Assembly: GCF_004010195.1 (NCBI RefSeq)
Contig: NC_057719.1
Location: forward strand, 12,096,332-12,160,001
DNA length: 63,670 nucleotides
Source: Chiloscyllium plagiosum
Taxonomy: Eukaryota
Direction: 5' to 3'
The position numbers and the translations under genes were made by a program. Positions 1,463-60,958 of the stretch are shown piece after piece; the first letter of the stretch is position 1, and each line of letters opens with the position of its first letter. The notes under the pieces are model-generated. The model was not told where the DNA came from. It did no database searches and saw only the letters and a list, made by a program, of their open reading frames with translations.

Positions 1463-1759
1463 GGTGAAAGTGAGGTCTGCAGATGCTGGAGATCAGAGCT
1501 GGAAATGTGTTGCTGGAAAAGCGCAGCAGGTCAGGCAGCATCCAAGGAACAGGAGAATCGACGTTTCGGGCATAAGCCCTTCTTCAGGAATGGGGAAAGT
1601 TTGTCCAGCAGGCTAAGATAAAAGGTAGGGAGGAGGGACTTGGGAGAGGGGCATCGGAAATGTGATAGATGCCCTCTCCCAAGTCCCTCCTCCCTACCTT
1701 TTATCTTAGCCTGCTGAACAAACTTTCCCCATTCCTGAAGAAGGGCTTATGCCCGAAAC
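1463..1759. mobile_element. Penelope-derived terminal repeat as a fold-back, with hammerhead-like cores
   Basis: Arms 1563-1655 and 1668-1759 are reverse complements; CTGAAGA-A-GGGC-TTAT-GCCC-GAAAC on both strands. Confidence 0.8.
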
Positions 1760-1930
1760 TCTGTTAATCTTTGTTCATTCATACCATAGGTTCATACGAA
1801 GTTTCATAATCGACAGGCACATGCTCCTGGCAGTGACACCTCCTGTCTTAGCTTCTCATACGATGGCAACACCCTGGCCTCACGTGGTGGTATGTGTCTG
1901 TTTCTGTACATATAAATATGTGCCTCGTAA

Positions 1931-2572
1931 GTACTGCGCAAGTGTTGCACCTCCTGCGGTTGCAAGGGAAGGTGCCGGGAGTGGTGGTTGGGTCGGTGGG
2001 GTGTGTGGATCTGACAAGGGAGTCGCGGAGGGAGTGGTCTCTACGGAAAGCTGATAGGGGAGGGGAGGGGAATATATCCTTGGTGCTGGGGTCTGTTTGG
2101 AGGTGGCGGGAGTGACGGCGGATGGTGCGCTGTACATGGAGATTGGTGGGGTGGTAGGTGAGGACCAGTGGGGTTCTGTCCTGGTGGCGGTTGGAGGGGC
2201 GGGGTTCAAGGGCGGAGGATCGGGAAGTGGGAGAGATGCGGTGGAGGGCATCGTCGACCATGTCGGGGGGGAAATTGCGGTCCTTGGAGAAGGAGGCCAT
2301 CTGTGTTGTACGTATTTTGGACTGGTCCTCCTGGGAGCAGATGCGGCGGAGTCGAAGGAATTGGGGGAATGGGATGGCGTTTTTACAGGGGGCAGGGTGG
2401 GAGGAGGTGTAGTCCAGGTAGCTGTGGGAGTCGGTTGGTTTGTAGTAGATGTCCGTGTTGATTCGGTCGCCTGAGATGGAAATAGAAAGGTCGAGGAAGG
2501 GGAGGGAGGAATCTGAGACTGTCCAGGTGAATTTGAGGTCGGGGTGGAAGGTGTTGGTGAAGTGGATGAACA
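1931..2572 (-). mobile_element. Penelope-like retroelement RT/linker fragment
   Basis: FHPDLKFT...LPFLDLSI...TDIYYKPTDSHSYLDYTSSHP...FPCNRRRCNTCA, characteristic of PLE RT and the Cys linker. Confidence 0.9.
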
Positions 2573-4451
2573 GCAATATCTGGAGATCAACATGTTTCAT
2601 AACTTTATGGTGCACTGATCTTGTCCCTTCCTCTAAGCCAGGAAGTCCGGGTTCATGGCCCACATGCTCCAGAGCTATATACAAACATCTCTGAACAGGT
2701 TGATTAAAAATATCTATAGCATAGCCTTATTGGTTGCATCTGCAAAGGAGTCACTAATCAAATCTGCAGTTTTGTTTAATCTGCCTTCAAAAAGCTCCAT
2801 GAAATCACAGAGTCCAGGCAAAAAAAAAATTGAAAAGTGTGGTGCTGGAAAAACACAGCAGGTCAGGCAGCACAATGTTCCTGCTGAATTACATGCATTT
2901 GAAGTCAGTTGGATGGTACTATGCAGGATTTACTCTGTATTAAATACTATAAATGCATGGCAGAGCAAGAAAATTTAAAGGTACAATGCTTTCAAAAACT
3001 GGGCACACACAATTATAAATTTAGAAGGGAGCCTTTGTGCAGAGCTGTACAATCTTAAACTCAGACATCTGCAGCAATCAAGCAGCACAGCTTCAAAGCT
3101 GTCTCTTCTTATGGAATGGTGCCCAGGAGTGACAAAATTGTCCAAATTCAATGTAATTAACTAATACAGGACTGTCTCTACTTATATCTGTCATTTTTCC
3201 AATCTTTCTTTCTGAGGTTTGGGCCATATATATCCCATTTGATTGGTCTACACTTCTGGGAAAGGAACTGCAATGGCTTGCCATTGCGTTTTGAAGGATA
3301 GCTCATCAGAAAAGTCTCCTACTCTTATCACCTGCCATCAGACATATTGGAAGGATTTATAATATGATAACGAACTCGAATTTCTGGTGTGGGGCTCAAA
3401 CCGCAAGCTTCTGGTTCAGAGGTATGGATAATATTACTGTACCAAAAGTCCTTCTATTTCTACTTCAGAAGCAATGAAACAAGGAGTCAATAGCTGGGCT
3501 ACAGCACCATTGCAGAGTGACATGATCTTGGGTTGTCTTTCTGTTCATGCATGCCTGGTATTTGCCATCCTCCTCATCCTTGAGCTTTAACAAAGGCTTT
3601 TAATGTGTTGAGGTGCTTTTTAGAAATTTTCAAAGCATTTCAGAAATGTTGCAACCTCATTTTGCATATCTTTTTAATGGTCCCCAGCCTTTTAAATTTC
3701 ATCAGTGCACACATTGTATTTCCTGCACCCATACAAATCCTCAACTGGACCTAAATACAGAAAACCAAATGCAAATTTAGGTACTTCCATGCAGATTTTT
3801 AAAATGTTCTTATCATTAATGTCAAAACTATATCAATATTAGGAAATCTAGTAGAGGTATCATCACAAGTGCTAGATGGCAATCAGTAGTTGGAATACTG
3901 GTGGCATTTTCCTTTCCCTTTTCGAGGGAATAAAACATAAATATGGCAAGCTGAGTAATACCTTTAGTTCTGTAAAATTTTGCAAACCAGCTCAGTTCAT
4001 TTATTCTCAGTTTTAGAGCAATTTAGAAAAACACATTAGGGACATGACTACAACATGCTCAGCAAATACAGTGACTGATGGGGAATCACGATGGCAGTGT
4101 CCATCTGAAATTGTAATTTAGATTTTAAGCCAATTTCCTTTCAGGATTAATAAATGTAACATCACTAAGTTTATTGAGGAGCAACTTGCACTTCAACTAT
4201 ATTTTCAATTGGCCACAGTTTGTTCAATCAATCAGCACATCTACAAAATTTTCAGGCAATTAAAATTAATGCACAAATCACTCATGATCAATGGGTTTTG
4301 TGTTCTGAACGTTAGTTCCTTCTTAAATGTTAGTAAAACTCAACTGCAATAAATGCTTAATTTTGTAACACAATTAAAAGACAGCTGCTATGCAAATTAA
4401 TTTTATTAATAATTAAATAACAAATGTCAAAATATTTTGAAATTTTCTTAC

Positions 4452-4546
4452 AGGATCGGTGGACTTGGTTTGTCCCCATGTCATTATTGTTGACAACAGA
4501 ATGAATGTTTTTGAGCTTTCGAAATTTCCTATCTCTGAATGCAATG
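4452..4546 (-). CDS. AK7: AK7 exon 4 (ALHSEIGNFESSKTFILLSTIMTWGQTKSTDP)
   Basis: Polypyrimidine tract plus acag acceptor, GTAAGA donor, 95 nt, phase 1-0; matches AK7 FILLSTVMTWARSK; not in the ORF track. Confidence 0.95.
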
Positions 4547-4729
4547 CTGTAAAGAAAGAAGAGAAAGGAAAATAAACACTACCCTTTCGCATTTTTCATT
4601 GTTTATGTGGTTCAGAAAAAGCCAAGAAAATGTACAATATTTATTCAGAATTGTATTTTTTAATTTAATTGCAAAACACTGAGAACTTGAAATGATTGAT
4701 AACTTGGTCAGTTTTCCCTCACTGTGAGA

Positions 4730-5012: not shown

Positions 5013-5017
5013 TAATT

Positions 5018-6440: not shown

Positions 6441-6594
6441 ACTCTTTTCTGCTTCCCCCTCTGTGCTATACTTCTGGTTAAGTTTGCTTGGTATGCTTGA
6501 CACCTTCCAGGACAAAGCACTCCACTTAGAATCATAGAGATGTACAGCCTGGAAACTGACCCTTCAGTCTAACTTATCCATGCCAATCAGATTT

Positions 6595-6735
6595 TTAGCT
6601 ACAGTCAATTCTGAAGAAGGGTCACTGGACCCAAAACATTAACTATGCTTTCTTTCCACAACTGCTGCCTGACATGCTGAGTTTTTCCAGCAATTTCTGA
6701 CTTTGTTACTGATTTCCAGTATCCCGCAGCTCTTC
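6595..6735 (+). mobile_element. Short Penelope-derived element with degenerate hammerhead core
   Basis: CTGAAGA-A-GGGTC-ACTG-GACCC-AAAAC at 6611-6637, followed by a GCTGCCTGAC..GCTGAGTTTTTCCAGC tail shared with other copies. Confidence 0.7.
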
Positions 6736-6820
6736 ACTCTTTTCTGCTTCCCCCTCTGTGCTCTACTTCTGGTTAAGTTTGCTTGGTATGCTTGACACCT
6801 TCCAGGACAAAGCACTCCAC

Positions 6821-7432
6821 TTAGAATCATAGAGATGTACAGCATGGAAACTGACCCTTCAGTCTAACTTATCCATGCCAATCAGATTTCCTACATTAAT
6901 TTAGTCCCATTTGCCAGCATTTGGCCCTTGTCCCTCGAAACCCTTCCAGTTCATATACCCATTCAGAGACCTTTTAAATGTTGTAATTATACCAGCCTCC
7001 ACCACTTCCTCTGGCGGTTTATTCCATGCATGCACCATCCTCTGCATGAAAAGATTGCACCTTACGTCCCTTTTAAATGTTTCCCCTCTCACCTTAAACC
7101 TCTGCCCTTTAGTTTTGAACTCTCCTACCCTGTGGAAAAGACCTTGACTATTCACCCCATCCATGCCTGCCATGATTTCATATATTTCTATAAGGTCACC
7201 CCTCAGCCTCCAAAGCGCCAGGGAAACTAGCCCCAACCTATTTGGCCTCTCCCTATAGCTCAAACCGTTCAACACTGGCAACCTTCCTGTAAATCTTTTC
7301 TGAACCCTTTCAAGTTTCGCAACATCTTTCCTCTAGCAATGAGACCAGAATTGAATGTGTTATTATAAAAGTGGCCTAACTAATGTCCTTTACAGCCACA
7401 ACATGACGTCCCAACTCCGATACTCAATGCAC
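6821..7432 (-). mobile_element. CR1 (HER1-like) LINE 3' fragment
   Basis: RLRGDLIEIYEIM...WNKPPEEVVEAG plus 3' UTR. Confidence 0.9.
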
Positions 7433-7659: not shown

Positions 7660-8518
7660 TGGGGGAGGTAACTGGGAAAGTGATAGGTGGATAAAGGTGA
7701 GGGAGAAGGGATAGGTCAGAGGGGGCAGTGATGAATGGGTTCGGAGGGTAGTGCCGAGTTGGAGGTTTGGGACTGGGAATAATGTGGGGGTAGGGGAAAT
7801 GAGGAAGTTGTTCAAATCCACATTTATCCCACATGGTTGCAGGGTCCCAAAGCGGAATATGAAGCGTTCCTCCTCCAGGCGTCGGATGGTAACGGTTTGG
7901 CAGTGGAGGAAACCCAGGACCTGCATATCCTTGTTGGAGTGGGAGGGGGAGTTGAAGTGTTCAGCCATGTGGCGATGGAGTTGGTGTGTCCGGGTGTCCC
8001 AGAGGTGTTCTCTGAAACTATCCACAAGAAGGCGTCCTGCCTCCCCAATATAGAGGAGACCACAGCAAGTGCAATAGATGCAGTAGATGACATTGGTAGA
8101 GGTGCAGGTGAATTTCTGACAGATGTGGAAGGATTCCTTGACGCCTTGGACGGAAGTGAGGGGACTGGTGTGGGCACAGGTTTTGCACTTCCTGCCGTGG
8201 CAGGGAAAGGTGCCAGGAGTTAGATGTGGGCTGGTGGTGGATGTGTCCTGATGAGGGAATTGTGGAGGGAATGGCTTTTTTGGAACATTGATGGGGTGGG
8301 GAGGGAAATATATCTCTGATGGTGGGGTCCTTTTGGAGGTGGAAGAGGATGAAGTGTTGTATGCGGAGGTTGGTGGGGTGGAAGGTGAGGACCAGTGGGG
8401 TTCTGTCCTTGTTGCACTGGGAGAGGTGGGATTCAAGGGCGGTGGTGCGTGAAGTGGAGGAGATGTGCCGGAGGGCCTCGTCAACCACGTGGGAAGGGAA
8501 GTTGCGATTGTGGAAGAA
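7660..8518 (-). mobile_element. Penelope-like element, GIY-YIG endonuclease region
   Basis: FPCHGRKCKTCAH...NVIYCIYCTCCGLLYIGEAGR...FREH...FRFGTLQPCGIN. Confidence 0.9.
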
Positions 8519-9129
8519 TGTTTTTGGAAGATTTGAGGAAACCTTGGAGGGAAGTACATGAAAGTTTGTTTAGCTTATGTTCAGTGCATCTCCTCCACTC
8601 ATGCAACAGCGCCCTTGAACCCCACCCCTCCCAATGCAACGATAATCTCTGCAAGTTTGGAATCAATCTGTTGAACCTTCTCTGGACTGCTTTAAATATG
8701 GGGATGAAAACTATTCACAAAATTCCAGGTATGGCATTTCTACAGCCTTGGCCACTTTGGAGACTGCCATTAACAGCACTTCTGCTGATATAGACATTTT
8801 CTCCCTGGATGAATGTTCATACTGCATGATTGCTTATGGATAATTCTGATTTTCTGTATTACTGAATTCTTGTCGCTAAGCAACAGCTATTTCATTTGTT
8901 CTCTTCTACTCTGTTTCTAAAGAAGTGAACTATCCACTTCAAGGGTTTTAAAGACTTCATTTAAATACACATAAACAAAACAAATCCCTGGATATTCCTA
9001 CACCATTAACACAGCACATCTGAAATGAGATTAAAAACCATGTCTTGCTCATTCTTAATATTCACAATATAGAAATACAAACAAACTTAAAGTTATAGAT
9101 CTTCTTCCAGGTTAGAACACAAATTCAGA

Positions 9130-12900: not shown

Positions 12901-14197
12901 TATTTTCAAGCCTTTCACAAAGCTGTAAAGATTTTAGGTTTCCAATCCCACCATTTTGTGATTAATTGTACACATCTGTTTGGATTTCACCAACACTGCA
13001 ACTAGTCTTGGAGCTATGCATAATTACATAAATTAGATGGATAAGAAAAAATACATATCATTTTAGATTCATGGTGGCCAACACTGTATCTGTCCTGAAC
13101 TGTATCAGAGGTACTAAGCATATTACCTGATATCAGAAAATCTATCTTGGTGATTTTATACATGTTTCCTTGCCAAATATCCTTTGTGATCATGGTCATA
13201 TTTAGGAAATGCCTCTCCATGTCTTGCCAGAAGTATTGTTCACTGGCTGGAGTAGTGGCCTTTAAAATTAGCTTTCAACTGTCAAAGCTCTTACTTTTAA
13301 AAATCCCTCCCACAGCTGGTAATTGAATGGTAGAAGATGAAAAGTCCCATTTTCAACTTAAGACAAGTGGCAAGGGAAAAAGAGACAATAAGAAGAGAAA
13401 ACTAAGAAAGAAAGCATGTGTAGAGTGTTTATAGAGTGTTTATTTTCATGCAAATATATTCATGTTGGTACTTCTCTCTGTAAGTTACAGTTCATATTCT
13501 ATTGATAAAGCTATTGAAGATATTTCCCTGAGGTGGTTGGCTGCCTAAGGGTGAAAGGTAGAATTGTTACTTAAGTTTTACAATGCACAATAACATTATT
13601 AGACAAATAAAATAATTGCCAAAGTAAAATTGCTTCATTGTATGTTCCTACCTTACTAAAAAATGAAATGACTAAATGCAAATGAATACTTTAATGATTG
13701 ATAATTCACGTGGAATGCAAATTACCCTAAATACCCTGATAAAAAGGCATATATATATATTGTATATGTACAGAAAACAAATAAAGTGAAACCAATATTG
13801 AAGATGATGCGCCAGATTGAATCAATAGACCATAATCTAAATTCCATAATAGGGTGTATTAAGTTTGTCTCTACAGACACAAATCTCACTGACAAGAGAT
13901 CAGTTACATGTCTCAACTGTACCATTCTCCATTTATGTGTTTCAGCTCTAAAAGGAGAGGATATCTAGGGGGAAGGGTCACTGGACCCAAAATATTAACT
14001 CTGCTCTCTCTCCACAGACTCTGCTGAGTTCCTCCAGCAACTTCTGTTTTTGTACAGCCTAGCAGGAGTTCTGTTCTGAATTAGTGGGGGAAGATACAAG
14101 CTTCCTTTCGAGCATTTTATGAAATTCAGCACACCATTTCAGTACACTGAAACATTAACATCTTCTCCAACAGGTAACTAAGACAAGGATTTTTATG

Positions 14198-14351
14198 GAT
14201 GTAGATTTGCTCGCTGAGCTGGAAGGTTCATTTACCAGACATTTCATCATCCTACTAGGTAACATCTTCAGTGGGCCTCTGGAACCTTCCAGCTAAGCGA
14301 GCAAACCTACATCCAGAACCTCAACCTGAGCTACAAATCTTCTCAAAACTC
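14198..14351. mobile_element. Short inverted Penelope-terminal element with 15-bp TSD
   Basis: ACAAGGATTTTTATG at 14183-14197 and 14352-14366; internal inverted arms; same family as 41850-41960. Confidence 0.8.
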
Positions 14352-16305: not shown

Positions 16306-16318
16306 GCACATTCGAAAG

Positions 16319-16527
16319 GGGAAAGTGAGATGCTGGAGATCAGAGTCGCTGAGTGCGGTGCTGGAAAAGCACAAGGGGTCAGGCTGCATCCAAGGATCAG
16401 GAGAACTGACGTTTCGAGCATAAGGTCTTCATCCTGATGAAGAGCTTATGCTCGAAACGTCAATTCTCCTATTCCTCGGATGCTGCCTGACCAGCTGTGC
16501 TTTTCCAGCACTGCACTCCTCAACTCG
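16319..16527. mobile_element. Palindromic Penelope-terminal element with intact hammerhead-like core and 13-bp TSD
   Basis: GCACATTC(G/C)AAAG at 16306-16318 and 16528-16540; CTGATGA-A-GAGC-TTAT-GCTC-GAAACGTC at 16434-16461. Confidence 0.82.
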
Positions 16528-20850: not shown

Positions 20851-21150
20851 GGGTGGCACGGTGGCTCGGTGGTTAGCACTGCAGCCTCACAGCACCAGGG
20901 TCCCAGGTTCAATTCCAGCCTCGGGTGACTGTCTGTGTGGAGTTTGCACATTCTCCCCGTGTCTGTGTGGGTTTCCTCCCACAGTCACAAAGATGTGCAG
21001 GTCAGGTGAATTGGCCATGCTAAATTGTCCATAGTATTAGGTGCATTAGTCAGAGGGAAATGGGTCTGGGTGGGTTACTCTTCGGAGGGTCGGTGTGGAC
21101 TGGTTGGGCCGAAGGGCCTGGTTCCACACTGTAGGCAATCTAATCTAATC
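20851..21150 (+). mobile_element. HE1-like SINE
   Basis: A/B boxes, CR1-like tail, (TCTAA)n. Confidence 0.92.
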
Positions 21151-21282
21151 AAACACCAGATTACAGTCCAACAGGTTTATTTGGAAGCATTAGCTTTCCG
21201 AGCGCTGTTCCTTCATCAGGTGGTTGTTCACCCAAAAGCTAGTGCTTCCAAATAAACCTGTTGTTATGTGATTTTTAACTTT
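21151..21282. mobile_element. Short inverted Penelope-terminal element (GGAGC/GCTCC stem family)
   Basis: Minus strand CTGATGA-AGGAACAGCGCTCG-GAAAGCTA; inverted arm AACAGGTTTATTTGGAAGC / GCTTCCAAATAAACCTGTT; related to 57121-57247. Confidence 0.7.
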
Positions 21283-21949
21283 ATAAAGTTGAACTTTTTT
21301 TCTTTATTCTTCTGCCTTTACATTGTATTTTGGTTTATTTTTCTGTGTTTTACAATAGCACTGAACACTATACAATACTTTTCACTGTATTTTGTAACAA
21401 AATAATGTGACAATAAAGAAATCAAAAATTCAAATCAGTTTATACAAGTTACTACTGCAATTCTCAGCAATACTGAAAAGTTTCAACGTACTTGAAAATA
21501 CTGTCAAGCTCTATCAGCAACTCCAACAATTAGAGAAACAGATGGAGGACATTAACTATAGGTCCAATAAAACTCAGAAAAAAAGATGACGGCAAAGCAA
21601 AAAGCCAAATCCACATATTCTATTGATGAAAATGACAGATGGCCTCCTGACTCTGTAAACATTTTGCCTAACAGCTAACAGTTAGGAACTCAACTGCGGG
21701 GGTAACCTAACCTTTGCCTGGCAAATACAATGCATTCAGTGTCCTATGTTCAGACATCACTGGCTGGGGACACCTCAAATCAAAGTTGGTGGCTATAATT
21801 CTGCCGAAGGTGTGGACACTGTTGGATACTATATTACAAAACCTTCTGGAATTTTCCCAACCAAAGTTGTGTACACAAGTGTGTGCACAAAGAATTATTT
21901 ATGTGTGCACTCACACATACATGTACACTAGATAAACTTGCCTATACAA

Positions 21950-22759: not shown

Positions 22760-22769
22760 GGCTGCCCGG

Positions 22770-28067: not shown

Positions 28068-28198
28068 AGTGAAAAGGTGGGACAAAGATGCTGGAGATCA
28101 GAGTTGAAAAGCGTGGTTCTGGAAAAGCACAGCAGGTCAGGCAGCATCTGAGGAGCAAGAGAGTCGACTTTTCTGGCATAAGCCCTTTATCAGGAATG
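28068..28198 (-). mobile_element. Penelope-terminal fragment
   Basis: Same GATGCTGGAGATCAGAG...GGAAAAGCACAGCAGGTCAGGCAGCATC family as 1463. Confidence 0.75.
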
Positions 28199-28660
28199 TA
28201 TAAATGCAGCAAGGGGACATCCAGAAGTTGAATCAATTCATACAATTTTTGACATTAACTTGCTCATGTGGACTTCTGAGAGTAGAAGAAACTCTATTTG
28301 TGGAATTGCCTTCTTCAAAAATATGAATGGGGATTTCCGCCAATCGTGAATGCAGTAGACTGAGAATGCACAGTAATAGATGCATGTACTTGCACACTTG
28401 CTTCTCAAGGAAATAGATTTTCTTTTAATTCCTTTTCTTCGAAACCACAGATAAGTGAAGATTAGACTCACTGTTTCACCCAATGCAAGGTTTACACACA
28501 TTAGAGAAAATCACAGAAGGCAGACATGTGAGCAGCAGGACTTGTCTATACTCACGATATAAAATATTCAGCAAAGACACCTTGCAATAAGTGCATTATC
28601 TTCTGTCTTTTTGTCAGTTTCTCTCTACTGTAGCAAAAATAAATCCACACTTATACTTAC

Positions 28661-29214: not shown

Positions 29215-29408
29215 TACAAACAACTGCAGATTCTGGAACAAAATAGAAATTGCCGGAGAAACCCAGCAGGTCTGGCAGCATCTGTAGAGTTAAATTTTGA
29301 GTACAGTAATCCTTCTTCAGAACTGAAATTCTGCAGTTCCGAAGAGGTTCACTGGACTTAAAACAACAACTTCCTTTTCTCTCCACAGTTGCTGCCTGAA
29401 CTGCTGAG
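29215..29408. mobile_element. Inverted pair of degenerate Penelope-terminal repeats
   Basis: CTTCTTCAGAACTG ... CAGTTCCGAAGAGG centre; same family as 6595. Confidence 0.65.
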
Positions 29409-30165: not shown

Positions 30166-30436
30166 CTAAATAAAACAAAACACATCTCTTAAGAGGGAGA
30201 AAGGTTGCTCTGATAGAAGGTTACAAAATGCAGTTGCAGAATGTTGGTGTCAGTGACAGGGTCAGCATTTACTGCTCAACAGAACTTGTTAATGAACTAT
30301 CTTCTTGAATATAATCAACTGGGTTATGAGTGCTGTTAAAAGTCAACCACAAACAAATCAGAAATTGCTGGAAAAACTCTAGGTCTGTCAGCATCAGTGG
30401 AGAGAAAGCAGAGTTAACATTTCAGGTCCAGTGATC

Positions 30437-33388
30437 CTGGCAGATGAACTCAGGGCATGGTTAGGAACATGAGACTGGATATCATAGCAATTACAGAAAC
30501 ATGGCTCAAGGATGGGCAGGACTGGCAGCTTAATGTTCCAGGATACAAATGCTACAGGAAGGACTGAAAGGGAGGCAAGAGAGGATGGGGAGTGGCATTT
30601 TTATAAGGGATAGCATTACACATGTGCTGAGGGAGGATATTCCTGGAAATACATCCAGAGAAGTTATTTGGGTGGAACTGAGAAATAAGAAAGGGATTGT
30701 ATTATAGACTCCCTAATAGTCAGAGGGAAATTGAGAAACAAACTTGTAAAGAGATCTCAGCTATCTGTAAGAATAATAGGGTGGTTTTTTTTGTGGATTC
30801 CCTACAGTGTGGAAACAGGCCCTTCGGCCAAACCAGTCCACACCGACCCTCCGAAGGGTAACCCACCCAGACTCATGTCCCACTGACTAATGTACTTAAC
30901 ACTATGGGCAATTTAGCATGGTCAATTCACCTGACCTGCACATCTTTGGACTGTGGGAGGAAACCCACGCAAACACGGGGAGAATGTGCAAACTCCACAC
31001 AGACAGTTGCCCAAGGCCGGAATCGAACCTGGGACCCTGGAGTTGTGAGGCAGCAGTGCTAACCACTGAGCCACCGTGTTATGGTAGGGAATTTTAACTT
31101 TCCAAACATAGACTGGGACTGCCATAATGTTAAGGGTTTAGATGGAGTGGAAGTTGTTAAGTGTGAACAAGAAAATTTTCTGATTCAGTCTGTGGATGTA
31201 CCTACTAGAGAAGGTGCAAAACCTAACCTACTCTTGGGAAATAAGACAGGGCAGGTGACTGAGGTGTCAGTGGGGGAGCACTTTGGGACCAGTGACCATA
31301 ATTCTATTAGATTTAAAATAGTGATGGAAAAGGATAGACCAGATCTAAAAGCTGAAGTTCTAAATTGGAGAAAGGCCAATTTTGACGGTATTAGGCAAGA
31401 ACTTTCAAAAGCTGATTGGGGGCAGATGTTCACAGGTAAAGGGACGGCTGGAAAATGGGAAGCCTTCAGAAATGAGATAACGAGAATCCAGAGAAAGTAT
31501 ACTCCTGATGGGGTGAAAGGAAAGGCTGGTAGGTGTAGGGTATGCTTGATGACTAAAGAAATTGAGGGTTTACTTAAGAAAAAGAAGGAAGCATATGTAA
31601 GGTACAGACAGGATAGATCGAGTAAATCCTCAGAAGAGTATAAAGGCAATAGGAGTATACTTAAGAGGGATATCAGGAGGGCAAAAAGGGGGCATGAAAT
31701 AGCTTTGGGCGAATAGAGTTAAGAGAATCCAAAGAATTTTTACAAATATATTAAGGACAAAAGGATAACTAGGGAGAGAATCGGGCCCCTCAAAGATCAG
31801 CAAGTTGGCCTTTGTATGGAGCCACAGAAAATGGGGGAGATACTAAACGAGTATTTTGCATCAGTATTTACTGTGGAAAAGGATATGGAAGACATAGAAA
31901 GTAACGAAACAGGTGGTAACACCTTGCAAAATGTCCATATTACAGAGGAGGAAGTGCTGGATGTCTTGAAACGCATAAAGGTAAATAAATCCCCATGACC
32001 TGATCAGGTGTACCCTAGAACTCTGTGGAATGCTATGAAGTGATTGCTGGGCCTCTTGCTGAGATATTTGAATCATCGATAGTCACAGGTGAGGTGCCGG
32101 AAGACTGGAGGTTGGCAAACGTGGTGCCACTCTTTAGAAAGGGTAGTAAGCCAGGGAACTATAGACCAGTGAGCCTGACGTCGGTGGTGGGCAAGTTATT
32201 GGAGGGAATCCTGAGGGACAGGATGTACATATATTTGAAAAGGCAAGGACTGATTAGGGAAAGTCAACATGGCTTTGTGCATAGGAAATCATGTCTCACA
32301 AACTTGATTGAGTTTTTTGAAGAAGTAACAAAGAGAATTGATGAGGGCAGAGCAGTAGATGTGATCTATATGGACTTTGGTAAGTCATTCGACAAGGTTC
32401 CCCACGGGAGACTGGTTAGCAAGGTTAGATCTCATGGAATAAAGGGAGAATTAGCCATTTGGATACAGAAATGGCTCAAAGATAGAAAACAGAGGGTTGT
32501 GGTGGAGGGTTGTTTTTCAGACTGGAGGCCTGTGACCAGTGGAGTGCCACAAGGATCGGTGCTGGGTCCTCTACTTTACAGAAATGATTTGGATGCGAGC
32601 ATAAGAGGTACAGTTTGTAAGTTTGCAGGTGGAGGTGTAGTTGACGGTGAAGAAGGTAACCTCAGATTACAACACGATCTTGATCAGATGGGCCAATGGG
32701 CCGAGAAGTGGCAGATGGAGTTTAATTCAGATAAATGCGAGGTGCTGCATTTTGGGAAAGTAAATCTTAGCAGGACTTATACACTTAATGGTAAGGTCCC
32801 GGAAAGTGTTGCCGAACAAAGAGACCTTGCAGGTTCATAGCTCCGTGAAAGTGGAGTCACAGGTAGATAGGATAGTGAAGGTGGTGTTTGGTATGCTTTC
32901 CTGTATTGGTCAGAGTATTGAGTACAGGAGTTGGGAGGTCATGTTGTGGCTGNNNNNNNNNNNNNNNNNNNNNNTGTTTTCCCTGGAGTGTCAGAGGCTG
33001 AGGGGTGACCTTATAGAGGTTTACAAAATTATGAGGGGCATGAATAGGATAAATAGACAAAGTCTTTTCCCTGGGGTTGGGGAGTCTCGAACTAGAGGGC
33101 ATAGGTTTAGGGTGAAACGGGAAAGATATAAAAGGGACCTAAGGGGCAACTTACACACACAGAGGGTGGTATGTGTATGGAATGAGCTGCCAGAGGAAGT
33201 GGTGGAGTCTGGTACAATTGCAACATTTAAAAGGCATCTGGATGGGTATATGAATAGAAAGAGTTTGGAGGGATATGGGCCAGGTGCTGGCAGGTGGGAC
33301 TAGATTGGGTTGGGATATCTGGTCGGCATGGACGGGTTGGACCAAAGGGTCTGTTTCCATGCTGTACATATGTATGACTCTATGACTC
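30437..33388 (+). mobile_element. HER1-like CR1 LINE, about 2.7 kb of ORF2 (APE endonuclease plus RT), disrupted
   Basis: [49 protein letters not shown]; stops and frameshifts; TATGACTC tail. Confidence 0.95.
30795..31077 (-). mobile_element. HE1-like SINE inserted in the CR1 endonuclease domain
   Basis: A/B boxes on the minus strand; host reading frame resumes at 31081. Confidence 0.92.
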
Positions 33389-41574: not shown

Positions 41575-41960
41575 CTAGTATCCTCACATACGGATGAGGA
41601 AGGACACCACTTCGACTGGGACAACACATCCATCCTAGGACAAGCCAAACAAAGACATGCACGAGAATTCCTAGAAGCTTGACATTCCAACTGCAACTCT
41701 ATCACAAACACATCGAGTTAAACCCCATCTACCACCCCCTGAGAAAAGGAACAGGAAGTGACTTCACCACAGGAAATGACATCACCAACCCAAAGAAACC
41801 CAAACATATAAATAATAATAAGGAATGTTTAGCATTTCTTCACCTGAGGCCCACTGAAGATGTTACCTAGTAGGGTAAATAAACATCTGGAAATGAACCT
41901 TCCAGCTCAGCGAGCAAACCTACATCCAAAACCTCAACCTGAGCCACAAATCTTCTCAAA
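41575..41960 (+). mobile_element. Penelope 3' fragment (GIY-YIG C-terminus plus terminal repeat)
   Basis: GHHFDWDNTSILGQAKQRHAREFLEA, typical PLE C-terminus; CTGAAGA-TGTTACC-TAGTA-GGGTAA hammerhead-like core at 41854. Confidence 0.8.
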
Positions 41961-48199: not shown

Positions 48200-48508
48200 G
48201 GGCGGCACGGTGGCACAGTGGTTAGCACTGCTGCCTCACAGCGCCAGAGACCTGGGTTCAATTCCCGCCTCAGCCGACTGACTGTGTGGAGTTTGCACGT
48301 TCTCCCCATGTCTGCGTGGGTTTCCTCCCACAGTCCAAAGATGTGCTGGTCAGGTGAATTGACCATGCTAAATTGCCCATAGTGTAAGGGGCAGGGGTAA
48401 AATGTAGGGGAATGAGTCTGGGTGGGTTTGCACGTTGGTGTGGACTTGTTGGGCCGAAGGGTCTGTTCCCACGCTGTAAGTAATCTAATCTAATCTAATC
48501 TAATCTAA
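48200..48508 (+). mobile_element. HE1-like SINE with AAATGG TSD
   Basis: A/B boxes, (TAATC)n tail, AAATGG on both flanks. Confidence 0.93.
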
Positions 48509-48796
48509 AAATGGTAGATACCTAGGTCCCTCAGGAATACTGAGGAACGAAGGGACCTTGATGACCTTCAGGGTCCATAGATCCCTGAAGCTGTCAGTAC
48601 AGGTACAAAGGGTGATGAAGAAGGCATGTCGGATGCTTGTCTTCATTAGCTGGGACATAGAACATATGGACAAGGAAATCTTGCGACAACTTTATAAAAC
48701 ATTGTTTAGGCCACAAATTGCGGTTGTGGTTGTCACACTATTGGAATGACATGATTCCACTGGAGAGAGTAGAAAGGAAATTCACCCAGAACTTAT

Positions 48797-49118
48797 GGGC
48801 GGCACGGTGGCTCAGTGGTTAGCACTACTGCCTCACAGCGCCTGAGACACAGGTTCAATTCCCGCCTCAGGCGACTGCCTGTGTGGAGTTTGCACGTTCT
48901 CCCCGTGTCTGTGTGGGTTTCCTCCGGGTGCTCCGGTTTCCTCCCACAGTTCAAAGATGTGCAGGTCAGGTGAATTGGCCATGCTAAATTGCCCGTAGTG
49001 TTAGGTAAGGGGTAAGTGTAGGGGTATGGGTGGGTTGCGCTTCGGCGGGTCGGTGTGGACTTGTTGGGCCAAAGGGCCTGTTTCCACGCTGTAATGTAAT
49101 GTAATGTAATCTAATCTA
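48797..49118 (+). mobile_element. HE1-like SINE, full length
   Basis: A/B boxes, (TAATG)n(TAATC)n tail, AACTT near both ends. Confidence 0.93.
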
Positions 49119-53563: not shown

Positions 53564-55564
53564 GTGTGTGGTGCCGGAAAAGCACAGCAGGTCAGGCAGC
53601 ATCCAAGGAACAGGAGAATTGACGTTTCAGGCATAAACTCTTCATCAGGAATGAGGTGGGCGGAGCACCTGAGANNNNNNNNNNNNNNNNNNNNNNNNNN
53701 NNNNNNNNNNNNNNNNNNNNNNNNNNNNNNNNNNNNNNNNNNNNNNNNNNNAGGAAACTGGTGAAGTCAATGTCAATGCCGTGTGGTTGGGTTCCAAGGT
53801 GGAAGATGAGGCGTTCTACCTCCAATCGTCGGGTGGCTTGAATTTGGTGGTGGAGGCCGCCCAGGGCCTGCATATCCTTGGGGGAGTGGGAGGGGAAGTG
53901 GGAGGGGGAGTTGAAGTGGTCAGCCACAAGGCGGGAGGGTTGTTTGGTGCTTGTGTCCCAGAGATGTTCCCTGAAACATTCCACAGGTTGGCATCCTATC
54001 TCCCTAATGTAGAGGAGATCACATTGATGGACACTGTAGATGAGGCGTTTGAAAATGCAGGAAAATCTCTGCCAGATGTTGAAGATGTTGAGAATGGGGC
54101 CTTGAATGGAGGTGATGGGGGAGGTATGGGCACAGGCTTTGCACCTCTTGTGGCGGCAAGGGAAGGTGTGGGCCCAATGAGGGAGTCGCGGAGGGAATGG
54201 TCTCTGCGGAATGCAGAGGGGTGGAGAGGGAAATATATCTCTGGTGATGGGGTCTGATTGTAGGTGGCAGAAACAGCGGAGGATAATGCGCTCTATGGCA
54301 GAAATTGTGGTGGATAATGCGCTATATGGCAGAGGATAATACGTTGTATTTCGCAACCCACAATCAGACCCACCACCAGAAATATATTTTTGTCGCCTCC
54401 CCAAACTGCATTCTGCAGAGATCATTCCTTCCACAAGTCCCTTGTTAGGTCCACCTCCATCAACCCATGCCAAACCACCCTCCACTCTCAACACTTTCCC
54501 TTGAGGCACATTAGGTGTAAAACCTGCGCCCGCACCTCCCCCATTACCTTCATCCAAGGCCCCAAAGGATTCTTCCATATCCAGCAGAGATTTTCCTGCA
54601 CAATGGGGCAGCACAGTGTTTAACACCACTGCCTCACAGCGCCAGGGACTTGGGTTCGATTTCCGCCTCAGATGACTGTGTGTGTGGAGTTTGCACATTC
54701 TCCCCATGTCTGCATGGGTTTCCTCCAGGTGCTCTGGTTTCCTCCCACAATCCAAAGATGCACAGGCCAGGTTAATTGGCCATGCTAAACTGCCCATTGT
54801 AATAGGTGCATTAGTCAGGGGTACCCATAGGGTAGGGGAATGGGTCTGGGTGGGTTACTCTTTAGATGGTCAGTGTGGACTTGTTGGCCCAAAGGGCCTG
54901 TTTCCATACTGTAGGGAATCTAATCTAATCTAATCATCCAAACACCTCATCTACTGTGTCCGTTGCTCTTGATGTGATCTCCTCTACATTGAGGAGACAG
55001 GACACCAACTCGCAGAATGTTGCAGGGAACATCTCTGGGACGCGTGCATCAAACAACCCCACTGTCCTGTGGCCAACTCCCTCTCCCACTCTACCAAGGA
55101 CATGCAAGTCCTGGGCCTTCTCCATCACCAAATCAAAGCCACCTGACCACTGGAGAAAGATCGCCTCATCTTCTGCTTTGTGACCCTCCAAACACATTGC
55201 ATCAAGGTAGATTTCACTAGTTTGCAAATCTCCCCTCCCCCACCTCATCCCAGATTCAACCCTCCAACTTGGCACTGTCCTCTTGAACTGTCCTACCTGT
55301 CCATCTTCCTTACCACCTATCTGCTCCACTATCCTCTCAGACGTGTCACCATCACACACCCCCCTCACTTGCATCGACCTATCACCTTCCCAGCTACCAT
55401 CCCCCCAGCCCCGCTCCCTCCCATTTATCTCTCAGCCCCCTTCCCCCACCGCCAACATTCCTGACGAAGGGCTTACTCCAGCTCTATAGATGCTGCCTGA
55501 CCTGTGCTTTTCCTGCACCACACTTTTCGATTCTAATCTCCAGCATCTGCAGTCCTCACTTTCT
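53564..55564. mobile_element. Penelope element with two oppositely oriented GIY-YIG halves and a nested HE1 SINE (54605-54933)
   Basis: Minus-strand PLE 53564 to about 54340 and plus-strand PLE about 54340-55564; terminal repeats at both ends; possible imperfect 12-bp TSD. Confidence 0.8.
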
Positions 55565-55589
55565 CTCTATCAAGTAAGTGAAACACAGA

Positions 55590-56045: not shown

Positions 56046-56317
56046 TACAGGCTCTCCAAGTAGAAATGTGCTGAGAGTTCACTTTATCATGCCACTGAAG
56101 ATACACGCCAACCAGTTATCTTCACTCAACAGGGTAGGACGAATACAGTCCTGTAAATTCAGTGAGCCTTTCTAAGCAAGTACTGTTATAAACCGTCCCA
56201 CTGTACAGTCACATATCTCTCAACTGTAAATGCAGTTTCATCTACAAACTGCACTGTTCATTTCAGGTAACCTGTTTGTACTGTGCAGGGCACACAGTTC
56301 ATCTGCCTTTGCATGAC

Positions 56318-56479
56318 CAAGTCAAAAGGTGTGGCGCTGGAAAAAAACAGCTGATCAGGCAGCTTCTGAGGAGCAGGAGAATCGACTCTCCTGCCCTTCG
56401 GATGCTGCTTGACTGGCTGTGCTTTTCCTGTGCCACACCTTTTGACTCTGGTCTCCAGGATCTGAAGTCCTCACTTTGA
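56318..56479. mobile_element. Palindromic Penelope-terminal element with perfect 12-bp TSD
   Basis: CCTTTGCATGAC at 56306-56317 and 56480-56491; arms AGTCAAAAGGTGTGGC / GCCACACCTTTTGACT. Confidence 0.85.
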
Positions 56480-57120: not shown

Positions 57121-57247
57121 TGATTGTGAAGGAGCAGGGCTCCGAAAGCTAGAGCTTTCAAATAAACCTGTTGGACTATAACCTGGTGTTATGTGATTTT
57201 TAACTTTGTACACCCCAGTCCAACACCGGCACCTCCAAATCATGACT
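57121..57247 (+). mobile_element. Short Penelope-terminal element (GGAGC/GCTCC stem family)
   Basis: TGA-A-GGAGC-AGG-GCTCC-GAAAGCTAG; tail shared with 21151-21282. Confidence 0.7.
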
Positions 57248-57776
57248 TTAAATTTTGTGATGACCCTGGGAATAGCCAGGCTTGATTTCTAGCACGTTAA
57301 CCCAGTGACACTTTGTCATCATGGTCTGGGTATCATCTGGCTCACAGTTAAAAAACATATGTGGAGTATTAATTAACACCTCAGGTATGCCTCATGCCTC
57401 CATTTGTAAATACCTTTTCTTGTCCCTAATTGACCCCTTTTACCACCTATCTACTCCTTACCTGCTCATGGAGGCATTGGGATTTCCCTTTATGTTAGCC
57501 ATGAATGTTTTTCTCATAACAACTCTGCTTTCAACTTAACCAGGACGTTGTTGGGTGATCAGTCTCTGATTATGCATTGACTACAGCAGAACCAACTGAG
57601 TGGAGATACATATCTAAGGACATCAGATTTTGTCATGATTGCTGCACGGAGCCAAAGCACAGCAAGAACAATTTGTTCATACCTAAAATGCACCTTTAAC
57701 ACTGTGAAGCATCACAAAGCCCTTCGCAGCAGAGTCATGAAACAAAATTTGAGAACCAGCCACCAAAGAGCTCTTA

Positions 57777-58501
57777 GCTGAAAAATGTGTTGCTGGAAAA
57801 GCGCAGCAGGTCAGGCAGCATCCAAGGAGCAGAAGAATCGACGTTTCGGGCACAAGCCCTTCTTCACGAATGAGGAAGATGTGCCAAGCAGGCTAAGATA
57901 AAAGGTAGGGAGGAGAGACTTGGAGGAGGGGCGTTGGGAATGCGATAGGTGGAAGGAGGGTAAGGTGAGGGTGATAGGCCGGAGAAGGGGTGGGGGCGGA
58001 GAGATCGGGAAGAAGATTGCAGGTCAAGAAGGTGGTGCTGAGTCCAAGGGTTGGGACTGAGATAAGGTGGGGGGANNNNNNNNNNNNNNNNNNNNNNNNN
58101 NNNNNNNNNNNNNNNNNNNNNNNNNNNNNNNNNNNNNNNNNNNNNNNNNNNNNNNNNNNNNNNNNNNNNNNNNNNNNNNNNNNNNNNNNNNNNNNNNNNN
58201 NNNNNAGTGAGGGGGGAGGTGTGGGCGCAAGTTTTGCATTTCTTGCGGTTGCAGGGAAAGGTGCCTGGAGTGGAGGTTGGGTTGGTGGGAGGTGTGGACC
58301 TGACGAGGGAGTCGCGGAGGGAGTGGTCTTTCCGGAATGCTGATAGGGGAGGGGAGGGAAGTATATCCTTGGTGGTGGGGTCTGTTTGGAGGTGGCGGAA
58401 ATGACAAAGGATGATACGATGTATCTGGAGGTTGGTGGGTTGCTTTTCCAGCAACACATTTTTCAGCTCTGATCTCCAGCATCTGCAGTCCTCACTTTCT
58501 C
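57777..58501 (-). mobile_element. Truncated Penelope element with inverted terminal repeat and imperfect 17-bp TSD
   Basis: PLE ORF fragment (FPCNRKKCKTCAH); CCACCAAAgAgCTCTTA at 57760-57776 and CCACCAAAtAcCTCTTA at 58502-58518; N gap 58076-58205. Confidence 0.85.
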
Positions 58502-58736: not shown

Positions 58737-58829
58737 TGCAGTGATGACATTTCCATCGTGTGTACGAACAGCTTCATCCACGAGATGTAGTTTCTCATTC
58801 AAGGAGCGAAACCTCTCTAAGGAGTACAT
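58737..58829 (-). CDS. VIPAS39: VIPAS39 exon ([31 protein letters not shown])
   Basis: tttcag/GTGAGT, 93 nt; SLERFRSL...HDGNVITA motif. Confidence 0.95.
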
Positions 58830-59244
58830 CTGAAAAACAAATTGGTACACAATCAGCAAAAATAAATGCTGGTTTCATAAAGATAGAAACAATGTATGTG
58901 GATGTGTGTAAATGTCAGAGAGGAAGAGGGCAACTACATTTCATTTAGTTCAAGCTTTCTCCAACTAATTTAAGTACTCTGTTTTCAATGTTTTCGTTCA
59001 CAACCTATTGGCTCTCTACTGCAACATGCCCCAGCAATTGGTTCACTACAATCAGTCATAGTTCTGGAGGTGAAGCAAGAATGAAACAATGTGACCAACA
59101 ATCCCAGGAAATAAATCATCTGTGAATGTTGGTTAGTCTCAGCTATCATGGTCTCCACCCTACCCTACTATTCCATTCCCCCTGCAATCCCTCTTGAAAA
59201 GAACGTTTCCTGTAGACACACAGCATCCTGCTTACACTTTATTT

Positions 59245-59900
59245 TTTATACTCACTCTTGGGATGTGGATGACATTAGCTGGCCAGCATTTATTACCCAT
59301 GTCTAGGTGCCCTTGAGAAGGACAAGCTGTCTTCTTGAAATGCTGCAGTCCATGTGCTTAGCTAGATCCACAATGACATTAGGGAGGAAATTCCAGGATC
59401 TTGACCCAGTGACACTGATGGATTGGGGTATATTTCAAAGTCAGGATGGTAAGTGGCTTGGAGGAGAACTTGCAGGAGGTGTTGTTCCCATGTATCTGCT
59501 GCGCTCACTTTTCTAAATGATAGTGGTCATAGGTTTGGACAATGGTGTCAACGGAGTCTTGATGAATTGCCATATTGCGTCTTTTAGACAGTAGGGGTCT
59601 CAACTTCTTCAGTGTTGCTGGCACTGCATCCAATCAGGCAAATGGGGAATATTCCATCATACTTCTCACTCGTGCCTTGTAGATGGTGGACAGGTTTTAG
59701 AGAGTCAGGAGATTAGTTACTCACTGGACAATTCCTAGACTCTGACCTACTCTTGTATCACAATAGTTATATGGCTAATATTGTTGTTTATGATCCATGG
59801 TTACCACTAGGATGTTCACTGTGGGGATACAGCAATGATCATGCCTTTGAATGGTTAGATTCTCTCTGGTTGGAAACGTTCGCTGTGTCATAGATTTATA
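59245..59900 (-). mobile_element. Degraded LINE 3' fragment (related pieces at about 7440-7660 and 46925-47230)
   Basis: Shared 3' UTR-like sequence among the three loci; remnant RT C-terminal motifs. Confidence 0.6.
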
Positions 59901-60003
59901 ATGACACTGGGGAAAGGGAGTGGCAAGTCCCTGGTGTCAATGACACTATATCACAAAGAAAGAAGTAGACTGCAAAAGAATCTTTGTCAGTATTTCACCA
60001 TAC

Positions 60004-60060
60004 CCTGCCTTTCTGCATCTGTCTAACTGTCTCCAGTGGACTCCAATCAATTGAAATGTC
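60004..60060 (-). CDS. VIPAS39: VIPAS39 internal exon (DISIDWSPLETVRQMQKGR)
   Basis: cacag/GTATGG, 57 nt; matches SPE-39 DYSNDWSPSDTVRRLRKGK; no further upstream exon found, so these presumably lie beyond the window end. Confidence 0.9.
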
Positions 60061-60719
60061 CTGTGAAGAGAAAGCAGGAAACTCAAGGTGAAGCACCAGT
60101 CAGAATCAAAACAGAACAAGCTACACAAAAACATAATGAGTTCGCAGCCAACTCCTTTAATGTCAAATCTTTCATTATTCATTGACAGGATGTGAATGTC
60201 GCCAGGAGGGCCGGTATTTCCTGCCCAATCCTAAATACTTTTGAGAAGATGGTGGTGAGGCACACTCCATTGTGTGTAGAATAGCTTCTTATTCCATATT
60301 TTGTCAATGAACTGAATTCAAATTTCCAATGGAGAGATCAGTGCTCTAGATCATTGGTTCAGGTGTTTGATAATTGTCCAGTAAAATAATCACCACATTA
60401 CAAATGCCACAATAAGCAGCATTCATTAAAAATAAATTCTTAAAGGGCAAGGTATGTGGAAGAAAAGCACATTTCCACATATCTGTCTGTTGTTTATAGC
60501 CTAAAAACATTCAATGAATAGAAGTACAAATAATCATCATTTTTGTTGCTATGTCTAGCTTTGCTTTCTGTACTATTGTGGAGAAAAGATTCATCTTGAA
60601 GTTATGCAGCACATTTATATTATTCTTCCATGGGATATGGGAGCCTCTGGCTAGGCCAGCATTTGTTGTCCATCCCTAAATGCTTTTCAACTGAATGGAT
60701 TGCAAGGCCATTTCAGAGG

Positions 60720-60958
60720 ACACAAAGAAATAATATAGAAATCACTGGAAAGACTCAGCAGGTCCGGGAGCATCTGTGGAGAGAAATCAGAGTTAATGTT
60801 TCGGGTCGAGTCACCCTTCTGGAGTTCCAAGGAAGGGTCACTCGATCAGATACATTAACTCTGACTGCTCTACACAAATGCGGCCAGACCTGCTTAGCTT
60901 TTCCAGCAAGTTCAATTTTTATCTCTGATTTATAATATCTGCAGTTCCTTCGGTTTTT
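60720..60958. mobile_element. Palindromic Penelope-terminal element (GGGTC/GACCC stem family)
   Basis: CAGAGTTAATGT...CCCTTC / GAAGGG...ACATTAACTCTG inverted arms. Confidence 0.75.

What the first reader, a model, noticed from the sequence alone, without database searches (positions are those of the whole stretch)
1560..60865. Four families of minimal hammerhead-ribozyme cores dispersed through the introns
Seen: about 15 short repeats carry, intact or decayed, CTGA(A/T)GA - stem II - GAAA - NN - T(H). There are four unrelated stem II sequences: GGGC-TTAT-GCCC or GAGC-TTAT-GCTC (1560-1587 minus, 1735-1759, 16434-16461, 53621-53648 minus, 57840-57868 minus); GGGTC-ACTG-GACCC (6611, about 13970, 29300, 30420, 60800); GGAGC-AGN-GCTCC (21191-21219 minus, about 57127); and TGTTACC-TAGTA-GGGTAA (41854, about 14240-14272 minus). 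Stem III is reduced to a 4-nt palindrome that differs by family but stays palindromic (ACGT in GAAACGTC, AGCT in GAAAGCTA). Established: Penelope-like elements carry minimal type I hammerheads that lack a stable helix III and are thought to cleave as dimers. Inference: these are non-autonomous, ribozyme-bearing PLE derivatives, and four coexisting families at roughly one copy per 4-5 kb may be an under-described retrozyme-like system in sharks.
Basis: partly seen in the sequence, partly recalled or inferred. Interest (0 to 1): 0.72.

Follow-up and report, generated by a model that had tools for sequence, protein, structure and literature searches.

The report
Penelope retroelement stubs with minimal hammerheads
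These short repeats are broken-off ends of Penelope-like jumping genes carrying a hammerhead ribozyme motif of an already described kind, and about half of the copies of the commonest family start just in front of the motif, often with an extra G, which likely marks the capped start of the element's RNA rather than a separate ribozyme-driven mobile system.

Summary
The motifs are real: 15 copies in the window, only 2 fully intact, and 165,806 intact cores genome-wide against 83 for the control. They are the minimal hammerheads already described for Penelope-like element (PLE) pseudo-LTRs. All four families link to PLE coding sequence (three Neptune-type, one Poseidon-type), and two of the 'unrelated' families share their tail. 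They are 5'-truncated or folded-back ends of coding PLE families, not retrozyme arrays.

Less ordinary: 43 of 81 family-1 copies start 1-7 nt before the core, with no pile-up at the cut site. In three families the start lies about 30 nt after a TATA-like box, at different offsets from the core (-4, -8, -19). In family 3 an untemplated G precedes it (68 of 100 against 18 of 100 one base away). The likely reading: uncut, capped RNA starts at or just before the ribozyme, and reverse transcription from the nearby tail runs off that end. I found no paper stating this, but this scan noted it before, on this genome and others.

Window bases 1760-1938 (a WDR70 piece) are probably an assembly gap-fill error. 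Cleavage is untested.

The parts
1460..1671 (-). Family 1 (Neptune-type) pLTR end: UTR piece 1611-1671, intact minimal hammerhead 1560-1587 (predicted cut between 1560 and 1559), tail 1460-1559
1672..1759 (+). Inverted copy of the same pLTR piece with hammerhead 1735-1759, cut after GAAAC at the probable gap-fill junction
1760..1938 (+). Piece of the WDR70 gene (exon 1790-1890 plus intron) from another chromosome; probably an assembly gap-fill error, not part of the element
1939..2570 (-). Neptune-type ORF fragment: RT thumb and CX4CXXC linker, 96-97% identical to a copy that carries RVT_1 and GIY-YIG
6606..6723 (+). Family 2 end with hammerhead 6611-6640 (G12 changed to A)
7901..8520 (-). Older, broken Neptune-type ORF fragment (thumb, linker, GIY-YIG), no hammerhead seen beside it; limits approximate
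   Evidence: six-frame translation
13966..14053 (+). Family 2 stub, CUGA half lost
14193..14346 (.). Family 4 (Poseidon-type) back-to-back inverted pair, hammerhead 14238-14271 on minus with damaged stem II; 15-bp direct repeat at 14183 and 14352
16328..16518 (.). Family 1 GAGC/GCTC subfamily back-to-back pair: intact hammerhead 16434-16461 on plus, partial one 16408-16436 on minus
21140..21286 (.). Family 3 back-to-back pair, hammerhead 21191-21219 on minus (C11.1 changed to G)
28086..28203 (-).
29224..29408 (.). Decayed family 2 back-to-back pair
30352..30443 (-). Family 2 stub, core damaged
41802..41959 (+). Family 4 pLTR end, hammerhead 41854-41887 with GAAA lost; the 5' limit is that of my query and the copy runs further upstream
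53566..54500 (-). Old Neptune-type copy: GIY-YIG ORF part 53775-54164, N gap 53675-53751, hammerhead 53621-53648 with damaged stem II, tail
55100..55557 (+). Old family 1 copy: ORF end, UTR, hammerhead 5' half at about 55460 with internal deletion, tail
56316..56473 (.). Family 1 tail-only inverted pair, 12-bp direct repeat at 56306 and 56480
57124..57239 (+). Family 3 stub, CUGA half lost, long tail form
57768..58494 (-). Neptune-type copy: tail, hammerhead 57840-57867 (C3 changed to G), UTR, N gap 58076-58205, ORF piece 58206-58442, inverted tail 58441-58494
60742..60945 (.). Decayed family 2 back-to-back pair
1182..1283 (-). Host exon, adenylate kinase 7 (context only)
   Evidence: E 6.6e-9

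Best explanation
The repeats are 5'-truncated and folded-back ends of at least four coding Penelope-like retrotransposon families, each with a minimal type I hammerhead motif in its pseudo-LTR, and many copies likely arose when reverse transcriptase started in the tail sequence and ran off the capped 5' end of an uncut element RNA that likely begins at or just before the ribozyme. Shown: family links to RT and GIY-YIG sequence, two-step 3' tail, inverted pairs, covarying stems, the 5' break hot spot, a TATA-like box about 30 nt upstream, the extra G. Inferred: the hot spot is the transcription start; the tail near the RNA 5' end serves as an internal RT start, as shown in vitro for the anole element; on reaching the end the enzyme stops (solo stub), restarts (inverted pair) or re-primes (tandem 40-mers). 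Untested: whether these hammerheads cleave. Most window copies are dead by mutation.
For: L010 holds one ORF with RVT_1 (E 4.2e-8), a CX4CXXC linker and C-terminal GIY-YIG (E 1.3e-4), then about 160 nt of UTR, the family 1 hammerhead and tail. L106 has two family 3 hammerheads 2,517 nt apart in direct orientation around an RT ORF, plus an inverted third pLTR. Family 4 loci carry RT/EN sequence upstream in sense in 11 of 30 (EN match to L010 E 3e-7). Family 2: EN homology upstream in sense in 1 of 30 (L064, E 5e-10) and a tail shared with family 1. Shared 3' extents fall in two groups 30-40 nt apart. Across 20 subfamily groups of 3 or more copies from 194 matches, helix I (2-4 bp in 19), stem II (3-7 bp in 19) and the ACGU/AGCU palindrome (19) are kept while their letters differ. 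GAGC goes with GCTC in 34 of 100 listed copies, against GCTC in 2 of 77 GGGC copies (counted by eye). 43 of 81 family 1 copies break 1-7 nt before C3, 5 at 8-24 nt, 33 run 25 nt or more. TATA-like box at -40/-38 in 18 of 22 long family 3 copies with break peak at -8; at -47/-48 in 19 of 38 long family 4 copies with 5 of 8 short copies breaking at -18 to -20; at -34 to -37 in 16 of 26 long family 1 copies. Non-native base just before the family 3 start: G 68, T 23, A 9 of 100; one base further: G 18, A 20, T 62 of 100 (counted by eye; Fisher p 8e-13). All 21 G copies among 30 loci lacked native upstream sequence. Family 1 CTGAAGA rows: 17 G, 5 A, 4 T of 26. No peak of 5' ends at the cut site (one copy each at +28 to +31 of 148). 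PMC11167929 shows internal RT initiation in the tail and insertion from uncut RNA; PMC11702581 reads an extra 5' G in L1 as cap copying.
Against: No transcript start was measured; the raw RNA run showed no pile-up of read starts or ends (about 2% of the run read). The G excess is absent in the family 1 TTTT subfamily (6 G, 6 A) and not clear in family 2. The TATA-like patterns were chosen after I had seen the sequences, and the family 1 box is a weak match. Family 4 has few short copies (8 of 44). 15 of the 21 G copies sit in inverted structures, where junction bases can have other origins. In Drosophila Penelope the promoter is described as TATA-less and the hammerhead lies after an intron, not at the RNA start (PMC2377424, PMC4209133). 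Clade labels rest on the linker motif; no tree was built. The family 3 full-length copy lacks a recognisable EN and its RVT_1 match is below cut-off (E 0.0044). Samples come mostly from the start of one chromosome.
Confidence: 0.72

Rival explanations
1. Same PLE ends, but the 5' hot spot is a structural roadblock: reverse transcriptase stalls on the folded hammerhead, and the G is a non-templated addition at a stall.
For: In families 1 and 2 the break (-1 to -7) coincides with the edge of helix I; many breaks are fold-back junctions (27 of 48 short family 1 copies).
Against: Helix I is only 2-4 bp in every family, yet the break sits at -8 in family 3 and about -19 in family 4, each about 30 nt after a TATA-like box; the G is specific to one position.
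Confidence: 0.13
2. One reading: independent non-autonomous, ribozyme-bearing mini-elements (retrozyme-like) that are transcribed, self-cleave, circularise and are remobilised by PLE enzymes.
For: Very high copy number of short units with shared ends; 203 tight tandem dimers and one 5-mer with a target-site repeat; a 2026 preprint reports retrozymes in one cartilaginous fish (10.64898/2026.07.22.740005).
Against: Short copies match the same subfamilies as the long coding copies and lack the upstream TATA-like box; no array in the window; among 37 neighbour pairs only 12 were same-strand and those printed were chance neighbours or single duplications; 5' ends do not pile up at the cut site; tandem junctions vary from unit to unit, unlike copying round a ligated circle.
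Confidence: 0.08
3. The 5' boundary is made by RNA processing other than capping at a start site, such as a splice acceptor next to helix I as in Drosophila Penelope, or cleavage by another nuclease.
For: In D. virilis the intron end maps to the 5' end of helix I (PMC4209133); family 2 has CAG at -5 to -3 after a pyrimidine-rich stretch (sequence).
Against: Splicing would join one fixed upstream exon, but the sequences before the break are unique or inverted element; families 1, 3 and 4 have no AG at the break.
Confidence: 0.05

Closest known systems
[quoted passage not shown]
   Same: Type I core, unpaired base between 9 and 10.1, G10.1-C11.1, palindromic 15.2-16.2, short helix I, pLTR location, mostly solo copies, opposite-strand pairs, several families per genome; reported for Neptune and Poseidon in fishes.
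   Different: No shark is named in the parts I read; counts there are about 4,000 (coelacanth) and 9,000 (Xenopus) against 165,806 here with a different descriptor; no 5' break hot spot or extra G is described in those parts.
EN+ PLE insertions of the Neptune and Penelope/Poseidon clades (Craig et al. 2021, PMC8557442; passages seen)
   Same: 5' truncation, partial tandems, inverted 5'-truncated partner, 30-40 bp optional tail, C-terminal GIY-YIG, CX2-5CxxC linker in Neptune and not in Poseidon.
   Different: In the passages seen, truncation is not tied to a fixed site; here about half of family 1 copies share a 7-nt break window.
Anole Poseidon PAc in vitro (Frangieh et al. 2024, PMC11167929; main text parts 1-2 of 4)
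   Same: RT starts at two internal sites that define the tail; uncut RNA is the main template; hammerhead lies just before the tail.
   Different: PAc ORF starts inside stem II, whereas in L106 the ORF starts after the tail; the RNA 5' end was not mapped in the parts read. PAc cleavage needs protein; untested here.
Animal non-LTR retrozymes (Cervera and De la Pena 2020, PMC7229834, passages; preprint 10.64898/2026.07.22.740005, parts 1 and 3 of 5 plus passages)
   Same: Type I hammerhead, relation to PLE pLTRs, high copy number (a section title gives up to 120,000 in axolotl).
   Different: Retrozymes are 150-450 bp head-to-tail arrays with canonical hammerheads, no ORF and abundant circular RNA; the copies here are dispersed, minimal and tied to coding families.
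Extra 5' G of full-length L1 insertions (PMC11702581; one passage seen)
   Same: Untemplated G at the 5' junction, read as copying of the mRNA cap.
   Different: In L1 it marks full-length copies; here it would mark the shortest copies, because RT likely starts near the RNA 5' end.

Membership tests
PLE minimal hammerhead | CUGANGA and GAAA core with one unpaired base before stem II and G10.1-C11.1 | tested here: met
   fully intact in 2 of 15 window copies, the rest mutated
PLE minimal hammerhead | Palindromic minimal helix III and short helix I | tested here: met
   Palindrome in 19 of 20 subfamily groups, helix I of 2-4 bp in 19 of 20
PLE minimal hammerhead | Located in the pLTR of a PLE | tested here: met
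   L010, L106, family 4 loci, L064
PLE minimal hammerhead | Self-cleavage as a dimer or with protein help | not testable with these tools
   Free folding of monomers and dimers did not give the active fold consistently; no read pile-up at the cut site
EN+ PLE, Neptune type (families 1-3) | Single ORF with RT and C-terminal GIY-YIG | tested here: met
   Family 1: L010. Family 3 shows RT only and family 2 EN only
EN+ PLE, Neptune type (families 1-3) | CX2-5CxxC linker before the endonuclease | tested here: met
   Seen in family 1 ORFs; not shown for families 2 and 3, which are assigned by similarity
EN+ PLE, Penelope/Poseidon type (family 4) | RT plus C-terminal GIY-YIG without the linker finger | tested here: met
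   ORF pieces in L081, L092, L102/L109; no Pfam match for the EN piece
EN+ PLE | Direct and inverted pLTRs, optional 30-40 bp tail | tested here: met
EN+ PLE | Target-site duplication | tested here: inconclusive
   12-15 bp repeats at 2 of 11 window sites, 7-9 bp matches at 4, none at 5
EN+ PLE | RT phylogeny within a named clade | not tested
   No tree built
Non-LTR retrozyme | Head-to-tail arrays of 150-450 bp units | tested here: not met
   None in the window; none among neighbour pairs printed; only about 40-nt dimers and one 5-mer elsewhere
Non-LTR retrozyme | Canonical type I hammerhead with full helix I and loop contacts | tested here: not met
   Helix I only 2-4 bp
Non-LTR retrozyme | No coding capacity in the family | tested here: not met
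Non-LTR retrozyme | Abundant circular RNA | not testable with these tools
   Only a poly(A) single-cell run with raw reads could be laid

The most novel reading that the evidence does not exclude
Shark-type PLE mRNAs are made from a TATA promoter in the pLTR and begin at the front of the hammerhead. Because the RT start site (the tail) also lies near the RNA 5' end, the element makes a short run-off cDNA like retroviral strong-stop DNA, and tens of thousands of these were integrated directly, folded back, or re-primed into tandem ribozyme repeats. The genome then holds a base-resolution record of PLE transcription starts and of the jump that forms pseudo-LTRs, and shows that uncut, capped RNA is the template in vivo.
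Probability: 0.6. Interest if true: 0.6.

Novelty: new member of a known kind. Interest (0 to 1): 0.38.

Why it matters
As ribozymes these are more members of a described class, at a high copy number. What could matter is mechanism: how PLEs form pseudo-LTRs and inverted ends, and what their hammerhead does, are open questions (PMC8557442, PMC11167929). If the break hot spot is the capped RNA start, it gives exact positions to test by CAGE and in vitro, and says that cleavage is not needed to make the template. Practically, stubs should be annotated as PLE ends rather than a new SINE or retrozyme, and the WDR70 piece shows that this assembly can hold false chimeric transposons.

Tried and rejected
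Rfam scan of the window at E up to 5 found no hammerhead family, only sub-threshold miRNA-like hairpins from the inverted pLTR. Pfam found nothing for the window ORF fragments alone or for the family 3 N-terminal and family 4 EN pieces.

I first read window 1460-2570 as a real tripartite chimera (Neptune body, captured host RNA, pLTR cap), since 24 other-chromosome or own places share the same foreign piece and junction. I rejected this in favour of gap filling: foreign and cap lengths are anticorrelated (rho -0.87, n 23; sum 457 +/- 68 nt against 658 in an intact element; L126 dropped, and L112, L113, L115, L117 mis-measured by my parser), unfilled gaps in Neptune copies are short by a similar 113-239 nt (4 gaps), and two fills stop at the same base before an N run.

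No RNA holder was listed for the WDR70 source stretch; run X16 laid no reads. Runs X11-X13 looked like DNA at first but hold spliced WDR70 contigs, so they are probably RNA and are weak tests of absence. Monomer and dimer folding was uninformative. The second host gene could not be confirmed (no match). The paper on dimer cleavage of PLE hammerheads (PMC5785218) is not held; I know it from a reference list and from recall.

Searches that found no paper on a cap-derived G or fixed 5' break in PLEs. One search listed no paper with 'shark' among its hits; one search listed shark genome papers that I did not read. Repbase, the preprint's supplements and the 2014 paper's supplements were not seen and may already name these families.


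Full report
Observation. The listed sites hold the described sequences. A strict descriptor gave 4 hits in the window against 0.4 on average in 25 shuffles; a relaxed one gave 21 against 6.0 in 10 shuffles. Fifteen copies lie within 7 differences of a family core; only 1560-1587(-) and 16434-16461(+) are fully intact. Rfam has no matching family. In the 3.56-Gb genome a generic core pattern occurs 165,806 times against 83 for the reversed control; family patterns gave 17,955, 281 and 2,731 with controls of 0. The host at the left of the window is AK7 on the minus strand (further exon candidates by eye).

What the copies are. Each core sits inside a longer repeat: upstream pLTR sequence of variable length, the core, and a tail whose 3' ends fall in two groups 30-40 nt apart. 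Families 1 and 2 share that tail. The window holds ORF fragments in the same sense as family 1 cores. [quoted passage not shown] L106 shows family 3 as pLTR-RT ORF-pLTR with an inverted third pLTR; its EN appears deleted and its Pfam score is below cut-off. Family 4 has RT and EN sequence without the linker finger upstream in sense in 11 of 30 loci, so Poseidon type. One of 30 family 2 loci has EN homology upstream. Many window copies are back-to-back inverted pairs, two with 12-15 bp direct repeats of 11 sites examined. Cervera and De la Pena 2014 (PMC4209133, parts 1-2 of 4) describe the same motif, solo copies and opposite-strand pairs, and attribute them to truncated PLEs.

Is the RNA structure conserved? 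Within dead copies no excess conservation is expected, so I compared families. In 20 subfamily groups from 194 matches, helix I, stem II and the ACGU or AGCU palindrome are each kept in 19, with different letters (the core itself was part of the search pattern). A compensatory subfamily exists: GCTC accompanies GAGC in 34 of 100 listed copies, against 2 of 77 on the GGGC background (by eye). This points to selection on the fold while the families were active. It does not show cleavage; folding was uninformative.

Retrozyme test. No hammerhead-bearing array lies in the window. Among 37 neighbour pairs in fetched loci, 12 were same-strand; those printed were chance neighbours or single duplications. 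Genome-wide there are 203 tight dimers of the family 1 core and one 5-mer inside a single insertion, with junctions that differ from unit to unit. By the definitions in PMC7229834 (passages) the window copies are not retrozymes; the 40-nt dimers might pass the looser tandem definition of preprint 10.64898/2026.07.22.740005 (parts 1, 3), whose supplements are closed.

The 5' break. Of 81 family 1 copies with a near-intact core, 43 leave the element 1-7 nt before C3, 5 at 8-24 nt, and 33 run 25 nt or more. Among 148 bystander tail hits, only one each starts at +28 to +31, the cut site. Read sets show the same boundary as loose ends at 1590-1592. Family 3 breaks peak at -8 and short family 4 copies at -18 to -20; a TATA-like box lies about 30 nt upstream in 18 of 22, 19 of 38 and 16 of 26 long copies of families 3, 4 and 1 (patterns chosen after viewing; the TATA lead came from earlier finding e1-8639351). 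The non-native base before the family 3 start is G in 68 of 100, against 18 of 100 one base further (p 8e-13); all 21 G copies in 30 loci lacked native upstream sequence, 15 of them inverted. Family 1 CTGAAGA copies gave 17 G of 26, but the TTTT subfamily gave 6 G and 6 A and family 2 was unclear. An extra G at L1 5' junctions is read as cap copying (PMC11702581, one passage), and the anole PLE starts RT inside the tail on uncut RNA (PMC11167929, parts 1-2). The likely mechanism is run-off at a capped RNA end at or just before the ribozyme, followed by integration, fold-back or re-priming. No start site was measured; raw RNA reads showed no pile-ups. D. virilis Penelope differs, with a TATA-less promoter and an intron (PMC2377424, passages). 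Searches gave no paper that states this for PLEs. Earlier agents in this scan reached the same reading on this and other genomes; that is not independent support, and I had the hot spot and first G counts before looking.

An artefact inside the finding. Window 1760-1938 is a piece of WDR70 that occurs 100% identical at 25 places; 24 join a Neptune body at one junction with 13 nt of microhomology, and one, L114, is the source. Foreign and cap lengths are anticorrelated and sum to about 200 nt less than an intact element, similar to the shortfall of unfilled gaps in Neptune copies; two fills end at the same base before N; in runs X12 and X13 the depth at 1884-1927 is accounted for by the source contig and the exon contig alone (weak because these runs are probably RNA). 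Gap filling is the likely cause, so the true join between the 1735-1759 copy and the ORF is unknown.

Verdict. Real motifs of a known kind in known element types; retrozyme reading not supported. The fixed, G-marked 5' boundary is a testable clue to PLE mechanism and carries most of the interest. Interest 0.38.

Noticed in passing
window 1760-1938; source L114 (G000:C16:76127235): A WDR70 exon with flanking intron is inserted, 100% identical, into 24 Neptune copies across the assembly; probably gap filling. A real Neptune insertion on another WDR70 haplotype could have supplied the junction: three long fills share two changes that the source locus lacks.
   Followed up: yes
L244:470-760 (G000:C7:77962970-77963260): Five hammerhead cores of about 40 nt in tandem inside one insertion with a flanking direct repeat; junctions differ between units, as if the enzyme re-primed repeatedly. 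203 such dimers genome-wide.
   Followed up: partly
window 27394-58829, minus strand: Exon candidates at 27394-27498, about 28661-28750, 30079-30165, 35399-35488, 43677-43752 and 58737-58829 resemble VIPAS39 (recalled; no match), upstream of the AK7 start exon near 22750.
   Followed up: partly
L107:5653, L150:1501, L061: A further hammerhead family of the Poseidon type (core with N7 = G, longer stem II), not present in the window.
   Followed up: no
L050:1100-1350: Another tail-related repeat with a hammerhead-like core and a different stem II, as two copies about 120 nt apart.
   Followed up: no
window 2544-2700: The junction between the Neptune body and its flank is held by one contig at depth about 100 in three runs, well above neighbouring intron depth; cause unknown.
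   Followed up: no
window 20850-21153, 30796-31078, 48199-49113, 54597-54933: tRNA-type SINE copies ending in TAATC repeats (recalled as the shark HE1/V-SINE type), one abutting the family 3 pair at 21140.
   Followed up: no
window 6441-6594 and 6736-6889: A 154-bp, 99% identical direct repeat flanks the family 2 copy at 6606-6723; either a local duplication or an assembly overlap.
   Followed up: no
L107:760-5442: A 1.4-kb direct duplication (99.7% identical, 3,255 nt apart) ending in a family 2 hammerhead with no ORF seen; not a full-length element.
   Followed up: partly
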